A stretch of 64,000 nucleotides of DNA from NCBI RefSeq assembly GCF_030013205.1, contig NZ_CP122648.1; one strand, written 5' to 3'. Source of the DNA: Escherichia coli. GTDB taxonomy: Bacteria; Pseudomonadota; Gammaproteobacteria; Enterobacterales; Enterobacteriaceae. Shown here piece by piece: positions 10,988 through 31,057 of the stretch. Every line of letters starts with the position of its first letter. The stretch's first letter is position 1. A program made the translations under genes and the position numbers. Under the pieces are notes generated by a model. It saw nothing but the letters and a program-made list of their open reading frames with translations, did not search any database and was not told the DNA's origin.

Positions 10988-11491
10988 TTACTGATAGTGT
11001 TTTATGTTCAGATAATGCCCGATGACCTTGTCATGCAGCTCCACCGATTTTGAGAACGACAGTGACTTCCGTCCCAGCCTTGCCAGATGTTGTCTCAGAT
11101 TCAGGTTATGCCGCTCAATGCGCTGAGTATAACGCTTGCTGATAACGTGCAGCTTTCCCTTCAGGCGTGATTCATACAGCGGCCAGCCATCCGTCATCCA
11201 TACCACGACCTCAAAGGCCGACAGCAGGCTCAGAAGACGCTCCAGTGTGGCCAGAGTGCGTTCACCGAAGACGTGCGCCACAACCGTCCTCCGCATCCTG
11301 TCATACGCGTAAAACAGCCAGCGCTGACGTGATTTAGCACCGACGTAGCCCCACTGTTCGTCCATTTCAGCGCAGACAATCACATCACTGCCCGGTTGTA
11401 TGCGCGAGGTTACCGACTGCGGCCTGAGTTTTTTAAGTGGCGGAAAATCGTGTTGAGGCCAACGCCAATAATGCGTGCACTGGCGCGACAT
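10988..11491 (-). CDS. insB: IS1 InsB
   Basis: 167-aa ORF inside IS1, overlapping insA in the -1 frame. Confidence 0.9.
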
Positions 11492-11685
11492 CCGACGCCA
11501 TTCATGGCCATATCAATGATTTTCTGGTGCGTACCGGGCTGAGAGGCGGCGTAAGTGAACTGTAGTTGCCATGTTTTACGGCAGTGAGAGCAGAGATAGC
11601 GCTGATGTCCGGCGGTGCTTTTGCCGTTACGCACCACCCCGTCAGTAGCTGAACAGGAGGGACAGCTGATAGAAACAGAAGCCAC
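11410..11685 (-). CDS. insA: IS1 InsA
   Basis: 91-aa ORF inside IS1. Confidence 0.9.
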
Positions 11686-11833
11686 TGGAGCACCTCAAAA
11701 ACACCATCATACACTAAATCAGTAAGTTGGCAGCATCACCTACATTCCTGCATTGTTCTGTGAACACTGACTGCAATATCAACTGACTCTCCGGAAACAA
11801 GAAAAACCGTCAGAATAAGTGCAAATACTGGAT

Positions 11834-12127
11834 TCATTGTGCACATCCTTTTGGCATCAGACGTAAACGGGCCAGCATTGAAACAATGCATACTTTATTT
11901 AATAACTCCCGTTCGTGTTTTCTTTTGTTAATGGCCTCTTCAGTGAATACAGGATTACTGATAGTGACACCAATTTCAAAACAACCTTCAGACGTATTAA
12001 CGTTTGGTAATAACGTTTTCATTATCGCGCCCTCAACAATGAGTTTTGTGATGCGGTGCCTGGTGCCTCCAGGTGACGTTAACCAGTTAACAATTAACGC
12101 CGGATACAGAGAATCCACCCATAACAC
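11834..12127 (-). CDS. hypothetical early-left protein (start uncertain; an alternative ATG at 12022 gives 62 aa)
   Basis: ORF track; stop overlaps the start of the IS1-disrupted ORF; a GAGGG SD precedes the 12022 start. Confidence 0.35.
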   Translation of the reverse strand: MLWVDSLYPALIVNWLTSPGGTRHRITKLIVEGAIMKTLLPNVNTSEGCFEIGVTISNPVFTEEAINKRKHERELLNKVCIVSMLARLRLMPKGCAQ

Positions 12128-12582
12128 TGTTTTGGGTTTTAACTGTTCCGCGTGCGCTTAGCCGCATTCACCGCATCACAAAATTCACTTTAAAAATGGC
12201 GGCAGAGCAGTCACGGAGTAAAACTGATACCGCCAAACGTCACCAGAAAATTGATAACAGAGGGCGTTGCAGCGGGGTTGTCACTTAAGCGTATGGTCAA
12301 CCTGACAACCCGGTGTCCTCAACGGGGAAGGAATAACCTCGCCATACTTACCGCCGCGCCATTTCGCGGAGTGCCACAACCGGAAGCGCACGGTCGACGA
12401 AAATTTAACGACAGGCTATCTATGAACCAGCTACCTCGCCGTGCGCTTTCGCGTTATGGTCTGACTTTTCAGGGAAATATCCTTTCAGTAAACTGTCAGT
12501 GCCGGATGTTCACCCGTGTCCGGCGCACGCACTCCACCTCACCCGTGGAGAACTCCTTAATTACCAACCCTCAGGAGGGTGA

Positions 12583-12816
12583 ATGTTAAAATCAACTCTT
12601 ATTGCTAAATGCCTTTATCAAAATCGCATGGTAAGCAGCATTTCAATAGGCGAGTCTGCAGTTAAAAGTATTTTCGAAGAGTACTTCCCCGGGCATGATT
12701 TTAATAAATGGAATACCAAATTACCGCCAGCAGTTTCAACGCGTATTCTGAAATCAACTGAAAGAGCAAGTACAATTCGCGTTAACTATTTCATTAAAGA
12801 TTTGTGGGATCTTTGA
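12583..12816 (+). CDS. hypothetical 77-aa protein on the strand opposite to the early-left operon
   Basis: AGGAGG SD 4 nt before the ATG at 12583; AT-rich coding sequence in a GC-rich context. Confidence 0.4.
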   Translation: MLKSTLIAKCLYQNRMVSSISIGESAVKSIFEEYFPGHDFNKWNTKLPPAVSTRILKSTERASTIRVNYFIKDLWDL

Positions 12817-13201
12817 TATCCACAGAGCCTAAAGTATGTGCATATGGATGTGCTATTGTGCGCCCTCGCAGATTTGCATCATTTTCTAAATTCACTGAAC
12901 GAAACAGGGCATCAACAAGGCTCTGTACAATGCAAAGGCAATCGAAGACTGTCGCTGTTTCTGTTTTGATTGATGAAAGAACATGGCCATTCACGCAAAC
13001 AGAAATTACCCGTTCATTAACATCGCTTTCCTGCTTTTGATTATCAGAACCATATAGCCCAGAAAAAGCATTGCGCACATTACGAACCATATTATCGATG
13101 GTTTCTTTTTTGGTGTATGCCGGGTCAATTTTCACCAGACTATCACCGAGAGTCGTTGCAGCAATTGTCTGGATTTCTTTTGGTAAATCTTTAAATTCCA
13201 T
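12794..13201 (-). CDS. hypothetical early-left protein (135 aa)
   Basis: ORF track; lies in the leftward operon between repressor and exonuclease. Confidence 0.5.
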   Translation of the reverse strand: MEFKDLPKEIQTIAATTLGDSLVKIDPAYTKKETIDNMVRNVRNAFSGLYGSDNQKQESDVNERVISVCVNGHVLSSIKTETATVFDCLCIVQSLVDALFRSVNLENDANLRGRTIAHPYAHTLGSVDIKDPTNL

Positions 13202-13223
13202 TATTAGCCTCGTTGGTTAGCTA

Positions 13224-13442
13224 TTAACGTGGGTATGTAATCATTCTGGCAATGCTTAATGCCGCTGCTTTTTCCAGATTGGTGATATCCTGCTCCAGAG
13301 CGGACAGATTTTCAGCCTGCTTAGCCCTGGCTTCATTGGCCCATTTCAGATCCTGCACTGCATTAATTTTCTGGCGCATCCACTTATAAAGTTCATCATC
13401 GGTATAGTCTGGCGCGATGATGACGGGTTCTCGTTTCTGCAT
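13224..13442 (-). CDS. hypothetical early-left protein (72 aa)
   Basis: ORF track; same operon context. Confidence 0.45.
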   Translation of the reverse strand: MQKREPVIIAPDYTDDELYKWMRQKINAVQDLKWANEARAKQAENLSALEQDITNLEKAAALSIARMITYPR

Positions 13443-13471
13443 ACTGATTCCTCGCGGTGCTGTTTCGCTTA

Positions 13472-13600
13472 TCAGCCGTTAGATTTTGCCGAACTGGAAA
13501 GCGCCTGTTTAAACTCACTGAAGCTGAGAGCTTCTTCGCCTTCGGCAAGTCCTTCGAAGTATTCTTCGTAAGCCTTTTCCATGATTGTGTCGAAATCCAT
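13472..13600 (-). CDS. hypothetical small protein (42 aa, MDFDTIMEKAYEEYFEGLAEGEEALSFSEFKQALSSSAKSNG)
   Basis: Found by manual translation; AGGTGAG SD upstream of the ATG at 13600; fills the gap between neighbouring ORFs. Confidence 0.3.
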   Translation of the reverse strand: MDFDTIMEKAYEEYFEGLAEGEEALSFSEFKQALSSSAKSNG

Positions 13601-13601
13601 A

Positions 13602-13838
13602 TTACTCACCTGAGTTTCTTTCCAGCCAGCGACGCGCGCCAGATTCGGTTTTAAACGTTTTGCTTTTGGTATACGTCATCGCGGTGAACGTGCCGTCCTG
13701 GTTGGGAAACACGCCGTATACCAGAGATTCGTTGTTGCCAAGATCGATAGTATCCATGCTGACCTCATTTCCCCTTAACGCCGGGGTAGCGGAACAAAAA
13801 CCTGCTGCATAGTTATTAAAGTTGAACCCTGCCGTCAT
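13602..13838 (-). CDS. hypothetical early-left protein (78 aa), first gene after the left operator
   Basis: ORF track; GAGG SD upstream of the ATG at 13838. Confidence 0.4.
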   Translation of the reverse strand: MTAGFNFNNYAAGFCSATPALRGNEVSMDTIDLGNNESLVYGVFPNQDGTFTAMTYTKSKTFKTESGARRWLERNSGE

Positions 13839-13939: not shown

Positions 13940-13982
13940 AGGATACCCATAGGTATTTAAAAGTAAATACCCATGGGTAACT
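13940..13982 (-). promoter_or_regulatory. left operator/promoter region (two palindromic 14-mers)
   Basis: atacccataggtat (13943-13956) and the perfect palindrome tacccatgggta (13968-13979), downstream of the repressor gene and upstream of the leftward operon. Confidence 0.5.
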
Positions 13983-14021: not shown

Positions 14022-14441
14022 CTATGATGCGTTTTGTGCTTTCTTTTTACGGATTTCTTCGTAGATCATATTGTAATACTGTTTTTTCTCTTCAAGAGTT
14101 TTTAATAAGTTATCCGCTTCACTTTCTGGCAGTTCGTCTAAGAGATCTAAAAAAATACGTTGTCGTGGCGTTAGAACCCTTGTTTCATAACTGGAGGCTG
14201 TGTTCGTTGATGATGAAACGATACCATCCATCCATCCCCGGGGTAACCCAAAGGACTCTTCGATAATCTCCACCATATCATCAGCGATCCGTTTTTTTCC
14301 CTTTTTCCCCTCTGGGTACAACATTCTTGATACATAAGAAGGCTCGCGCCCGATCTTTCTGGCCACGTTAACCGCTTTACCATCGCATTTCTCATCACGA
14401 ATTTTGATGAGTTGCTGTCGTCTAAATTCATATTTGTCCAT
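14022..14441 (-). CDS. prophage repressor (HTH, CI/RacR-like)
   Basis: 139-aa ORF with an N-terminal helix-turn-helix (KAVNVARKIGREPSYVSRML); flanked by operator palindromes and divergent from a cro-like gene. Confidence 0.6.
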   Translation of the reverse strand: MDKYEFRRQQLIKIRDEKCDGKAVNVARKIGREPSYVSRMLYPEGKKGKKRIADDMVEIIEESFGLPRGWMDGIVSSSTNTASSYETRVLTPRQRIFLDLLDELPESEADNLLKTLEEKKQYYNMIYEEIRKKKAQNAS

Positions 14442-29737: not shown

Positions 29738-29839
29738 TCACACTTTTTTGTCGTTAGCCAGCAAGAGCCGTTTACTGTTAATCTGTCAGGGAGTGTCCTC
29801 CCTAACAGTAGCAGAGATCTGCTTTTACATATTTATGCA

Positions 29840-30253
29840 TTAACTGCCACGATAGGTTGAATACCCATATTGGCTAAGTAATAAAGGCACATGATAATGC
29901 TCGTTCACTTTATTAATATGAAATTCAACGGGGATCTCAGGGAAGAAACTTTCAAGATTTTGTTTCTTGAAATAGTCCCCGGTTTTAAATACGACACGGT
30001 AATCGCCCGTAGTCGCAGTTTGCTCGGGCCACAGTGCCTTAATTCGTCCATCCTTATCTGTTTTGGCGGTATTAAGTTGTAACCAGCCGTTATCCGCTTT
30101 CTTTTCAAGAGTGACTGTCACGTCGGCAGCGGGTTTTCCTGTTTGCTGGTTCAAAATGTGCACGCTAAGAATGTTTTGTTGTGCAGCATAGACCAAAGAA
30201 GGTAATGAAAATGCAGCCGTTACTACGGAGAGTACTAAATAACGCTTTAACAT
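29840..30253 (-). CDS. hiuH: HiuH (YedX), 5-hydroxyisourate hydrolase, transthyretin-like
   Basis: 137-aa ORF with a signal peptide; C-terminal YRGS motif. Confidence 0.9.
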
Positions 30254-30385
30254 GTTTATATCCTTGTCATGTGAATGAGTTTTGAGGATAGCGAAAAAAC
30301 GTCCAGGGTAACCTTACAGCAGCATTACAATTTTGTAATGAACCAGGCTGTTTCTATAACATATGATTTATGGCATATTATTTTC

Positions 30386-31057
30386 ATGAAGATTCTACTT
30401 ATTGAAGATAATCAAAGGACCCAGGAATGGGTAACGCAGGGGCTTTCCGAAGCGGGTTATGTCATTGATGCCGTTTCTGATGGCAGAGATGGGCTTTATC
30501 TTGCGCTTAAGGATGATTATGCATTGATCATTCTGGATATTATGCTTCCGGGTATGGATGGCTGGCAGATCTTACAAACGTTAAGAACGGCAAAGCAAAC
30601 TCCTGTTATTTGCCTTACTGCAAGAGATTCTGTCGATGACAGAGTCAGAGGGCTGGACAGTGGGGCAAATGATTATCTGGTAAAACCTTTTTCATTTTCT
30701 GAGTTGCTGGCAAGGGTTCGGGCACAATTAAGGCAACATCACGCTTTGAATTCAACATTAGAAATCAGTGGCTTAAGAATGGACTCTGTTAGTCAAAGTG
30801 TGAGCAGGGACAATATCAGTATTACACTGACGCGCAAGGAGTTTCAGTTACTTTGGCTACTGGCCTCCAGAGCTGGCGAGATTATCCCCAGAACGGTTAT
30901 TGCGAGTGAAATTTGGGGAATCAACTTTGATAGTGATACCAATACGGTGGACGTCGCCATTCGCAGGCTCCGCGCAAAAGTTGATGATCCTTTTCCTGAA
31001 AAGCTAATCGCCACAATCCGGGGGATGGGCTATTCATTCGTAGCGGTAAAAAAATAA
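30386..31057 (+). CDS. hprR: HprR (YedW) response regulator
   Basis: ORF 30275-31057; start taken at MKILLIEDN (223 aa), OmpR-family receiver plus winged helix. Confidence 0.85.
   Translation: MKILLIEDNQRTQEWVTQGLSEAGYVIDAVSDGRDGLYLALKDDYALIILDIMLPGMDGWQILQTLRTAKQTPVICLTARDSVDDRVRGLDSGANDYLVKPFSFSELLARVRAQLRQHHALNSTLEISGLRMDSVSQSVSRDNISITLTRKEFQLLWLLASRAGEIIPRTVIASEIWGINFDSDTNTVDVAIRRLRAKVDDPFPEKLIATIRGMGYSFVAVKK

What the first reader, a model, noticed from the sequence alone, without database searches (positions are those of the whole stretch)
12128..12816. Opposite-strand small-gene locus and structured GC-rich spacer inside the early-left operon
The leftward early operon has no minus-strand ORF of 60 aa or more between 12128 and 12793. 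Instead the plus strand carries a 77-aa AT-rich ORF (12583-12816) with an AGGAGG SD. It is preceded by about 450 bp of GC-rich sequence containing several stable stem-loops (for example gggttgtca...tgacaaccc at about 12275-12311, gccgga...tccggc at about 12502-12525, ctccac...gtggag at about 12534-12552). An Arg-rich plus-strand frame ends by overlapping the 77-aa start (gaATGttaa). In lambdoid phages this position often holds exclusion or defence cargo such as sieB or rex. It could be an RNA element plus a small protein, or a two-gene module.
Basis: inference. Interest (0 to 1): 0.5.

Follow-up and report, generated by a model that had tools for sequence, protein, structure and literature searches.

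The report
DicF small-RNA locus plus cargo genes
The "structured GC-rich spacer" is the well-known prophage small RNA DicF and its processing leader, read on the opposite (minus) strand from the one proposed, while the 77-aa plus-strand ORF is a real but uncharacterised accessory gene, so the locus is mostly ordinary apart from one conserved, unclassified RNA domain just upstream of DicF.

Summary
Window 11.8-13.8 kb is the minus-strand dicBF (early-left) operon of a Qin-like E. coli prophage: ydfA, ydfB, ydfC, a 135-aa gene, a non-coding leader, dicF, dicB.

- **DicF.** Rfam places DicF at 12197-12248 on the minus strand (73.4 bits, cutoff 48). The whole spacer is about 96% identical to K-12 Qin, where RNase III and RNase E cut DicF out of the operon transcript.
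- **The stem-loops** belong to that minus-strand precursor.
- **The Arg-rich plus-strand frame** is an antisense artefact. It stays open in only 15 of 45 leader variants.
- **The 77-aa ORF** is a genuine gene. Full-length homologues at 53-72% identity occur in seven other genera, and the AlphaFold model has pLDDT 97. It has no Pfam, PADLOC or solved-structure match. With the convergent 135-aa gene it forms a 634-bp swappable cassette between ydfC and the leader.
- **Unplanned finding.** Positions 12266-12380 (minus) form a 115-nt pseudoknotted RNA with covariation support. It is absent from Rfam. It recurs without DicF in other lambdoid phages and in the phage P1 ban leader, always just upstream of an intrinsic terminator. 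Its function is unknown.

The parts
12197..12248 (-). DicF sRNA, whose 3' stem-loop is the intrinsic terminator hairpin and is followed by AUUUUU
   Evidence: Rfam RF00039 scores 73.4 bits (gathering cutoff 48), E = 6.8e-16, over the full model 1-52. The sequence is identical to K-12 dicF except for the last base.
12266..12380 (-). Conserved 115-nt pseudoknotted RNA domain, the 5' part of the ~190-nt DicF precursor.
   Evidence: On 72 distinct variants (alignment A6), 95.6% of cells are paired, against 33-54% when the 3' partners are slid. Twelve pairs show compensatory change, against 4.3 +/- 1.3 in shuffles (0 of 500 reach the observed value). It is the only match of covariance model R1 in the window (149.9 bits; circular, because this sequence was used to build the model). 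There is no Rfam match at E <= 1.
12374..12459 (-). Long imperfect duplex, about 25 bp, and the probable RNase III substrate. The 5' end expected for the 190-nt species (~12381-12385) lies in its 3' arm.
   Evidence: It appears in the minimum-free-energy fold and in the consensus fold of 56 leader variants, with changes such as U.G to C-G and C-G to U-A. RNase III dependence of the 190-nt species in K-12 comes from PMC10448788.
12386..12569 (-). Conserved non-coding leader between the cassette and the pseudoknot domain. It contains the hairpins at 12501-12524 and 12532-12550.
   Evidence: It aligns closely with the ydfC-dicF intergenic DNA of K-12 Qin and phage Tritos. The homology stops at about 12569.
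12045..12185 (-). STnc100-like 5' leader of dicB (below the Rfam threshold)
   Evidence: RF02076 scores 38.7 bits, below the gathering cutoff of 47, with E = 1.8e-6. Similar sub-threshold matches lie upstream of kil in phage pPE4 and of tciA in P1.
11834..12022 (-). dicB, a 62-aa cell-division inhibitor
   Evidence: RefSeq annotates the identical sequence as dicB. It matches phrog_1251 over its full length.
12583..12816 (+). 77-aa gene of unknown function. It runs against the operon and is the plus-strand half of the cassette.
   Evidence: It matches phrog_10348 over its full length, E = 3.5e-47. There are 33 homologues, most of them 77 aa, at 53-72% identity in Klebsiella, Dickeya, Xenorhabdus, Salmonella, Morganella, Yersinia and Serratia. 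A profile search finds 159 cluster representatives. The AlphaFold2 model has pLDDT 97.3 and five helices.
12794..13201 (-). 135-aa gene (phrog_1363), co-directional with the operon. Its 3' end overlaps the 77-aa gene by 23 nt.
   Evidence: PHROG match. Residues 56-135 align at 39-44% identity with the 77-79-aa convergent partners found next to 77-aa homologues in other genera. The AlphaFold2 model is poor (pLDDT 59.7).
12570..13203 (.). 634-bp variable two-gene cassette inserted between ydfC and the dicF leader
   Evidence: It is absent from K-12 Qin and Tritos, where ydfC abuts the leader. Only 648 of the 4594 E. coli genomes with a match include it. An alternative cassette (201-aa plus 63-aa genes) sits at the same junction with the same CTCAGGAGGGTGA flank.
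12251..12589 (+). 112-aa Arg-rich ORF, which is not a gene but the antisense of the dicF leader
   Evidence: It has no PHROG, PADLOC or NCBIfam match. Only 15 of 45 distinct DicF-type leaders keep at least 100 codons open. Length variants of the core (67, 68, 69 and 72 nt) shift the frame.
13224..13757 (-). ydfC (13224-13442), ydfB (13472-13600) and ydfA/DUF1391 (13602-13757), the upstream genes of the dicBF operon
   Evidence: RefSeq annotation of the identical sequence. The gene order matches K-12.

Best explanation
The region is the non-coding middle of the minus-strand dicBF (early-left) operon of a Qin-like lambdoid prophage, with a small accessory cassette inserted just upstream.

Layout on the minus strand, 5' to 3': ydfA, ydfB, ydfC, a 135-aa gene, a conserved leader with a long duplex, a 115-nt pseudoknotted domain, DicF, an STnc100-like leader, dicB.

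Mechanism, shown in K-12 and transferred here by about 96% sequence identity:
1. When the DicA-type repressor (14022-14441) is relieved, the PL-like promoter transcribes the whole array.
2. RNase III cuts in the long duplex and yields a species of about 190 nt, which is the pseudoknot domain plus a linker plus DicF.
3. RNase E trims this to the 53-nt DicF.
4. DicF base-pairs with ftsZ and other mRNAs and blocks cell division.
5. The DicF stem-loop also acts as an intrinsic terminator. Read-through of it expresses dicB.

Inferred: the 77-aa plus-strand gene and the convergent 135-aa gene are an exchangeable accessory cassette of unknown function. The plus-strand orientation would allow the 77-aa gene to be expressed while the operon is repressed, and converging operon transcription would oppose it after induction.
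For: - Rfam places DicF at 12197-12248 on the minus strand, 73.4 bits against a cutoff of 48.
- The alignment with K-12 Qin and phage Tritos has 96% mean column identity from about 12569 down to dicB, and DicF differs by one base.
- RefSeq annotation of the identical sequence gives ydfB, ydfC and dicB with a DUF1391 gene in the ydfA position, in K-12 order.
- Published K-12 work shows DicF is processed from the polycistronic transcript by RNase III (190 nt) and RNase E (53 nt), with no internal promoter (PMC10448788).
- The long duplex at 12374-12459 contains the expected 5' end of the 190-nt species.
- The pseudoknot domain has covariation support. It pairs better on the minus strand than on the plus strand, 95.6% against 88.1%.
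- The 77-aa gene is conserved across genera and folds confidently.
- In 10 loci from other genera (six look-ups) it is convergent with a 77-79-aa partner, with a 23-nt overlap.
- The cassette is absent from K-12 and Tritos. An alternative cassette occupies the same junction.
Against: - No expression data exist for this strain. Processing is inferred from K-12.
- The cassette adds 634 nt and a converging gene upstream of the leader, which could alter processing or transcript yield.
- No sigma-70-like promoter for the 77-aa gene was found between 12115 and 12582 on the plus strand. The extended -10 (TGnTATCTT) seen upstream of homologues in other genera is not present here. Expression of the 77-aa gene in this context is therefore unproven.
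- The role of the pseudoknot domain is unknown.
Confidence: 0.9

Rival explanations
1. One reading: a plus-strand locus in which a structured plus-strand RNA, or an Arg-rich 112-aa protein, acts together with the 77-aa protein as an exclusion or defence module that interrupts the operon.
For: - The plus strand also folds better than shuffled sequence (z = -2.81).
- The 112-aa frame is open in this window and its stop overlaps the ATG of the 77-aa ORF.
- A promoter-like site at 12087-12114 on the plus strand could in principle drive an antisense transcript.
Against: - The sequence is DicF plus its leader on the minus strand.
- The 112-aa frame is broken in 30 of 45 leader variants and has no family match.
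- G.U pairs favour the minus strand.
- The leader is present in K-12 and Tritos, which lack the 77-aa gene, so the two are not one obligate unit.
Confidence: 0.04
2. The pseudoknotted 115-nt domain is more than a passive part of the DicF precursor. It is a cis-acting RNA that controls read-through of the intrinsic terminator that always follows it. It could do this as an RNA-polymerase-modifying antiterminator in the manner of HK022 put, or as a ligand- or factor-sensing attenuator.
For: - It recurs without DicF in phages cdtI, F1055 and pPE4, in Stx2c phages, and in the P1/P7 ban leader just downstream of the C1-controlled promoters.
- In every class of locus an intrinsic terminator hairpin with a U-run follows close downstream.
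- In cdtI it lies about 285 nt after a strong PL-like promoter, with no N-like ORF before or after it.
- Loop and junction sequences are almost invariant across 2.9 million viral contigs, as expected for a specific tertiary fold or binding partner.
Against: - It has no sequence or structure similarity to the HK022 immunity region.
- In the dicBF operon it lies more than 1 kb from the promoter, and in K-12 a large share of transcripts do stop at DicF.
- I found no conserved alternative (antiterminator) pairing.
- There is no experiment on it.
Confidence: 0.3
3. The pseudoknot domain is a processing and stability scaffold only. It would set the RNase III and RNase E cleavage sites, or protect the 5' end of the precursor, with no regulatory role of its own.
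For: - The estimated 5' end of the RNase III product lies at or just upstream of helix P1 (12381-12385, against P1 at 12380).
- The 5' strand of P1 can pair instead within the RNase III duplex, which would link cleavage to folding.
Against: - The domain is conserved where the upstream RNase III duplex and DicF are both replaced by unrelated sequence, as in cdtI, P1 and F1055.
- Near-invariance of the loops is more than a simple scaffold needs.
Confidence: 0.35
4. The gap is the decayed remnant of a longer minus-strand protein gene.
For: No ORF is present on the minus strand.
Against: - The same non-coding sequence is kept at 95-99% identity in most of the 4594 (of 5426) complete E. coli genomes that carry it, usually in several copies.
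- It contains a functional sRNA.
- It shows compensatory base-pair changes rather than codon-like conservation.
Confidence: 0.01

Closest known systems
dicBF operon of cryptic prophage Qin, E. coli K-12 (ydfABC-dicF-dicB-ydfD)
   Same: - The gene order is the same.
- DicF is identical except for its last base.
- The alignment from the leader through the dicF-dicB spacer has 96% mean column identity.
- A DicA-type repressor and a divergent cro-like gene lie upstream.
   Different: - This copy has a 634-bp two-gene cassette (135-aa and 77-aa genes) between ydfC and the leader.
- IS1 is inserted in ydfD.
- It sits in a larger prophage that has an exonuclease gene.
Phage P1 'dicF-like region' in the ban operon leader
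   Same: It has the same pseudoknotted domain (76.5% identity, with compensatory changes in P3, P4 and the pseudoknot), followed by an intrinsic terminator and placed just after a repressor-controlled promoter.
   Different: - The P1 terminator hairpin is unrelated to DicF, and the Rfam DicF model does not match it.
- In P1, tRNA genes and the rest of the ban operon (here plp, upl, tciA) lie downstream, not dicB.
HK022 put RNAs (cis-acting RNA antiterminators)
   Same: This is a structured RNA in an early-operon leader, upstream of terminators, in phages that lack an obvious N gene at that position.
   Different: - The put RNAs are about 70 nt with two stems, whereas this domain is 115 nt with four helices and a pseudoknot.
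- Neither model R1 nor the core 20-mer matches HK022.
- Function has not been tested here.
Lambda/P22 sieB-type accessory genes that run against the early-left operon
   Same: The 77-aa gene is a small accessory gene in the early-left region, oriented against PL-type transcription. It varies between related prophages.
   Different: - It has no sequence-family match to any defence protein in PADLOC.
- It is 77 aa and predicted as a five-helix bundle, not a membrane protein.
- It comes with a convergent partner gene.
Rfam STnc100 (RF02076)
   Same: The leader between DicF and dicB aligns to model positions 21-154 with E = 1.8e-6.
   Different: The score of 38.7 bits is below the curated cutoff of 47, so it is not a confirmed member.

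Membership tests
DicF sRNA (Rfam RF00039) | Covariance-model score at or above the gathering cutoff over the full model | tested here: met
   73.4 bits against a cutoff of 48, model positions 1-52 of 52, E = 6.8e-16.
DicF sRNA (Rfam RF00039) | Location in a dicBF-type operon, between ydfC and dicB, on the operon strand | tested here: met
   Minus strand, 174 nt upstream of dicB as in K-12. ydfC lies upstream, separated by the cassette.
DicF sRNA (Rfam RF00039) | The 5' seed and the 3' terminator hairpin with a U-run are the same as in the characterised K-12 RNA | tested here: met
   All positions are identical to K-12 except the last base. AUUUUU follows.
DicF sRNA (Rfam RF00039) | [quoted passage not shown] | not testable with these tools
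   Shown only for K-12 (PMC10448788). The duplex that holds the expected cleavage site is conserved here.
HK022 put antiterminator RNA | Sequence and structure similarity to putL/putR (about 70 nt, two stems) | tested here: not met
   Model R1 finds nothing in HK022 24000-31000 at E <= 1, and the core 20-mer has no match with up to 3 mismatches. The architecture differs.
HK022 put antiterminator RNA | Makes RNA polymerase terminator-resistant in cis | not testable with these tools
   Only positional evidence exists: the domain always lies upstream of an intrinsic terminator.
Known anti-phage defence or superinfection-exclusion proteins (PADLOC models) | Profile match of the 77-aa or 135-aa protein to a defence family | tested here: not met
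   PADLOC gives no match at E <= 0.1. Pfam gives none. No NCBIfam match is meaningful.
Toxin-antitoxin pair | Two adjacent small genes that are co-transcribed and match known toxin or antitoxin families | tested here: not met
Rfam STnc100 (RF02076) | Score at or above the gathering cutoff | tested here: not met
   38.7 bits against 47.
Any Rfam 15 family, tested for the 115-nt pseudoknot domain | A cmscan match at E <= 1 | tested here: not met
   Nothing overlaps 12266-12380. Nothing overlaps the homologous segments of P1, cdtI, F1055 or pPE4 at E <= 0.1. ARAGORN finds no tRNA or tmRNA.

The most novel reading that the evidence does not exclude
The 115-nt pseudoknotted domain at 12266-12380 (minus strand) may be an autonomous, so far unclassified structured-RNA class of temperate enterobacterial phages. 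It is placed between an early, repressor-controlled promoter and the first intrinsic terminator, and it would govern read-through of that terminator, either as a put-like antiterminator or as a factor- or ligand-sensing attenuator. On this reading DicF is just one of several interchangeable terminator or seed modules attached to it.
Probability: 0.3. Interest if true: 0.7.

Novelty: already known. Interest (0 to 1): 0.38.

Why it matters
The flagged object itself is ordinary. It is a near-identical copy of the DicF locus, which has been studied since 1990. Recognising it removes a false lead about a plus-strand RNA/protein module.

Two by-products could matter:
1. **The 5' two-thirds of the "190-nt DicF" species is a separately conserved pseudoknotted RNA.**
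   - It is found in many lambdoid prophages and in the P1 ban leader, always in front of a terminator.
   - If it controls termination, it would be a second RNA-based route, besides HK022 put, by which N-less phages control early transcription.
   - It would also revise how expression of the toxic dicB and kil genes is thought to be gated.
2. **The ydfC/dicF-leader junction is a hotspot for exchangeable convergent gene pairs.** Their products, including a confidently folded 77-aa protein with no similar solved structure, are candidates for prophage accessory functions.

Tried and rejected
- **Rfam** at E <= 1 on 11700-13300 returned only DicF, a sub-threshold STnc100 match and two chance hits. 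Nothing covers the pseudoknot domain.
- **ARAGORN** found no tRNA or tmRNA.
- **HK022 put comparison.** There was no 20-mer or covariance-model match, so membership is rejected. The put sequence itself could not be extracted from the paper.
- **135-aa protein.** Pfam gave nothing. The AlphaFold model was too poor (pLDDT 59.7) to use in a fold search.
- **Further pseudoknot covariation.** Three scans that freed pseudoknot positions found only three singleton variants and no compensatory pairs. Five of the six core pseudoknot pairs were fixed by my own retrieval pattern. Independent support rests on one free position (U-A 67, C-G 3, U-G 2) plus this near-invariance.
- **Promoter for the 77-aa gene.** None was found in the window. 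The extended -10 of other genera is replaced here.
- **Prior literature.** Faubladier & Bouché 1994 (PMC205167) is not held, so I could not check whether homology upstream of dicF was already described. Full-text searches for 'dicF-like' and for DicF with pseudoknot or covariation found nothing relevant.
- **A distant member of the 77-aa family** lacks the convergent partner, so the pairing is a trait of the subfamily only.

Full report
**1. What is there**

- Between 12128 and 12793 the minus strand has only 36-aa and 33-aa ORFs.
- The plus strand has a 77-aa ORF at 12583-12816, preceded by AGGAGG.
- A 112-aa Arg-rich plus-strand frame (12251-12589) ends by overlapping its ATG.
- The three named inverted repeats are at 12275/12303, 12501/12519 and 12532/12545.
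- The spacer is 52% GC, the 77-aa ORF 36%, and the window 49%.
- Both strands of 12190-12580 fold better than shuffled sequence (z = -2.65 and -2.81). Folding energy therefore cannot assign the strand.

**2. Identity of the spacer**

A search of Rfam 15 finds DicF at 12197-12248 on the minus strand. The score is 73.4 bits (cutoff 48), E = 6.8e-16, over the full-length model.

RefSeq annotation of an identical sequence (E. coli K_EC180), translated into window coordinates, gives these minus-strand features:
- an exonuclease gene (8338-10779);
- a DUF1482/ydfD gene split by IS1;
- dicB (11834-12022);
- the 135-aa gene (12794-13201);
- ydfC (13224-13442), ydfB (13472-13600) and DUF1391/ydfA (13602-13757);
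- a repressor gene (14022-14441).

A cro-like gene and a ydaT gene diverge from the repressor on the plus strand.

This is the dicBF operon of K-12 prophage Qin. The alignment of the window's minus strand (12000-12620) with K-12 Qin and phage Tritos has 96% mean column identity from about 12569 down into dicB, and DicF differs only in its last base. A segment matching 12100-12830 occurs in 4594 of 5426 complete E. coli genomes, with a median of two copies.

**3. How it works (shown in K-12, inferred here)**

Ragunathan et al. 2023 (PMC10448788) show the following.
- DicF comes from the polycistronic transcript that starts at dicBp upstream of ydfA.
- RNase III creates the 5' end of a 190-nt species.
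- RNase E is needed for the 53-nt form.
- There is no internal promoter.
- Transcripts either stop at DicF (1146 nt) or read through into dicB-ydfD (1608 nt).

In the window, the minus-strand fold has a long imperfect duplex at about 12374-12459. The consensus fold of 56 leader variants keeps it, with changes that preserve pairing. Counting 190 nt back from the DicF 3' end gives a 5' end at about 12381-12385, inside the 3' arm of that duplex.

**4. The Arg-rich frame is not a gene**

It matches no PHROG, PADLOC or NCBIfam family. Among 45 distinct DicF-type leaders, only 15 keep at least 100 codons open on that strand. Length variants of the conserved core (67, 68, 69 and 72 nt) shift the frame.

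**5. The 77-aa gene and its cassette**

*The gene is real.*
- It matches phrog_10348 over its full length.
- It has 33 homologues. The full-length ones are mostly 77 aa, at 53-72% identity, in Klebsiella, Dickeya, Xenorhabdus, Salmonella, Morganella, Yersinia and Serratia.
- A profile search finds 159 cluster representatives among 1.84 billion proteins.
- AlphaFold2 gives a five-helix model with pLDDT 97.3.

*It comes with a partner.* In 10 loci from other genera, the gene is always convergent with a 77-79-aa partner, their 3' ends overlap by 23 nt, and the pair usually lies immediately downstream of the S24-type repressor gene. That partner aligns with residues 56-135 of the window's 135-aa protein at 39-44% identity.

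*The pair is a cassette.*
- K-12 and Tritos lack both genes, and ydfC abuts the leader there. The pair is thus a 634-bp cassette (12570-13203).
- Only 648 genomes carry it.
- Other E. coli strains carry, at the same junction and with the same CTCAGGAGGGTGA flank, a different pair. It consists of the 135-aa protein extended to 201 aa and an unrelated 63-aa convergent gene, again with a 23-nt overlap.
- The site therefore behaves as a cargo hotspot.

*Expression is unproven.* No sigma-70-like promoter for the 77-aa gene is visible in the window. Homologues in other genera have a conserved extended -10 (TGGTATCTT) about 35 nt upstream, and this is replaced here.

**6. An unclassified RNA domain inside the finding**

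*It recurs without DicF.* A blastn search showed that the segment just upstream of DicF (about 12258-12380) recurs on its own at 77-89% identity. It is found in:
- phage cdtI;
- Stx2c phages;
- Salmonella phage F1055;
- Actinobacillus phage pPE4;
- phages P1 and P7.

In P1 it lies just downstream of the C1-controlled ban promoters and partly under the annotation 'dicF-like region'. Rfam finds no DicF in those loci.

*How common it is.*
- A core-pattern scan of viral contigs hit the 120-locus limit.
- A scan of species-representative genomes found it in Escherichia albertii, another Escherichia sp., two Citrobacter species, Trabulsiella and Izhakiella, and on four MAG contigs labelled Collinsella, Lachnospiraceae or Bacillota.

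*Structure.* I aligned 72 distinct variants (A6) and proposed four helices and a pseudoknot (GUAUGG pairing with CCAUAC).
- On this structure 95.6% of cells are paired, against 33-54% when partners are slid.
- Twelve pairs show compensatory change, against 4.3 +/- 1.3 in shuffles (0 of 500 reach the observed value).
- Pairing is better on the minus strand than on the plus strand (95.6% against 88.1%), with 9.2% G.U cells.

*Caveats.*
- Five of the six core pseudoknot pairs were fixed by my retrieval pattern.
- The one free position covaries cleanly (U-A 67, C-G 3, U-G 2).
- Three further scans that freed pseudoknot positions found only three singleton variants. The strands are nearly invariant rather than covarying.

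*Context.*
- In every class of locus an intrinsic terminator hairpin with a U-run follows the domain close downstream. This hairpin is DicF in 72 instances, and it belongs to unrelated types in cdtI-like (27), P1-like (10) and other loci.
- In cdtI the domain starts about 285 nt after a strong PL-like promoter, and no N-like ORF lies nearby.
- The domain is not related to HK022 put by sequence or by model. ARAGORN finds no tRNA or tmRNA gene in the region.

*Possible roles.* I cannot decide between a processing scaffold and a cis-acting controller of the following terminator. I put them at roughly 0.35 and 0.3, with the remainder on a stable trans-acting RNA or something else.

**7. Known versus new**

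- DicF, its operon and its processing are already known, and this copy is nearly identical to the studied one.
- I found no description of the upstream domain as a separate conserved structure in Rfam 15 or in the searchable literature.
- The P1 annotation shows that the sequence similarity was noticed before.
- I could not read Faubladier & Bouché 1994, which may cover it.
- The cassette proteins belong to existing PHROGs of unknown function.

**8. Verdict**

- The main object is already known.
- I score interest as moderate to low. The residual interest lies in the pseudoknot domain and in the cargo hotspot.

Noticed in passing
window 12100-12259; Aeromonas phage AP1 MT713136 249906-250065: A 254-kb Aeromonas phage record carries a 98.6-98.8% identical copy of the E. 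coli DicF segment. This is an unexpected host. It may be assembly contamination or a chimera.
   Followed up: no
window 10873-11846: An IS1 element (transposase gene 10988-11685) splits the DUF1482/ydfD gene downstream of dicB into fragments at 10873-10971 and 11742-11846.
   Followed up: partly
window 12045-12185 (-); L018 1758-1942; L015 2842-2961: Sub-threshold Rfam STnc100 matches (33-39 bits, cutoff 47) lie directly upstream of dicB here, of kil in phage pPE4, and of tciA in P1. They may represent one conserved 5'-leader family for division-inhibitor genes.
   Followed up: partly
window 12794-12816; L005-L014; L152/L153: The convergent gene pairs overlap by exactly 23 nt in both E. coli cassette variants and in 10 loci of other genera, although the overlapping sequences differ. 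In the window the overlap contains the palindrome AAAGAT-N7-ATCTTT.
   Followed up: partly
window 12500-12582 versus L005-L010 3930-4000: The plus-strand flank upstream of the 77-aa gene shares a hairpin (GCCGGA..TCCGGC here, GCCGGG..CCCGGC elsewhere, a compensatory change) with the promoter region of homologues in Serratia and Klebsiella. K-12 and Tritos keep this flank without the genes. Their arrangement may therefore derive from loss of the cassette.
   Followed up: partly
L018 1600-1760 (Actinobacillus phage pPE4): There is a tandem duplication of the linker plus terminator hairpin directly after the pseudoknot domain. By its gene content the phage looks like an E. coli Qin-type phage.
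   Followed up: no
L144-L146, L150 (genome contigs): Short MAG contigs labelled Collinsella, Lachnospiraceae and Bacillota carry the exact core of the enterobacterial pseudoknot domain. They are probably misbinned enterobacterial prophage DNA.
   Followed up: no
window 13944-13979 (-): A 16-bp perfect-stem palindrome (TACCCATGGGTATTTA...TAAATACCTATGGGTA) lies between the repressor gene and ydfA. The scan reported it as terminator-like. It is more likely an operator or promoter-region element of the PL-like promoter.
   Followed up: no
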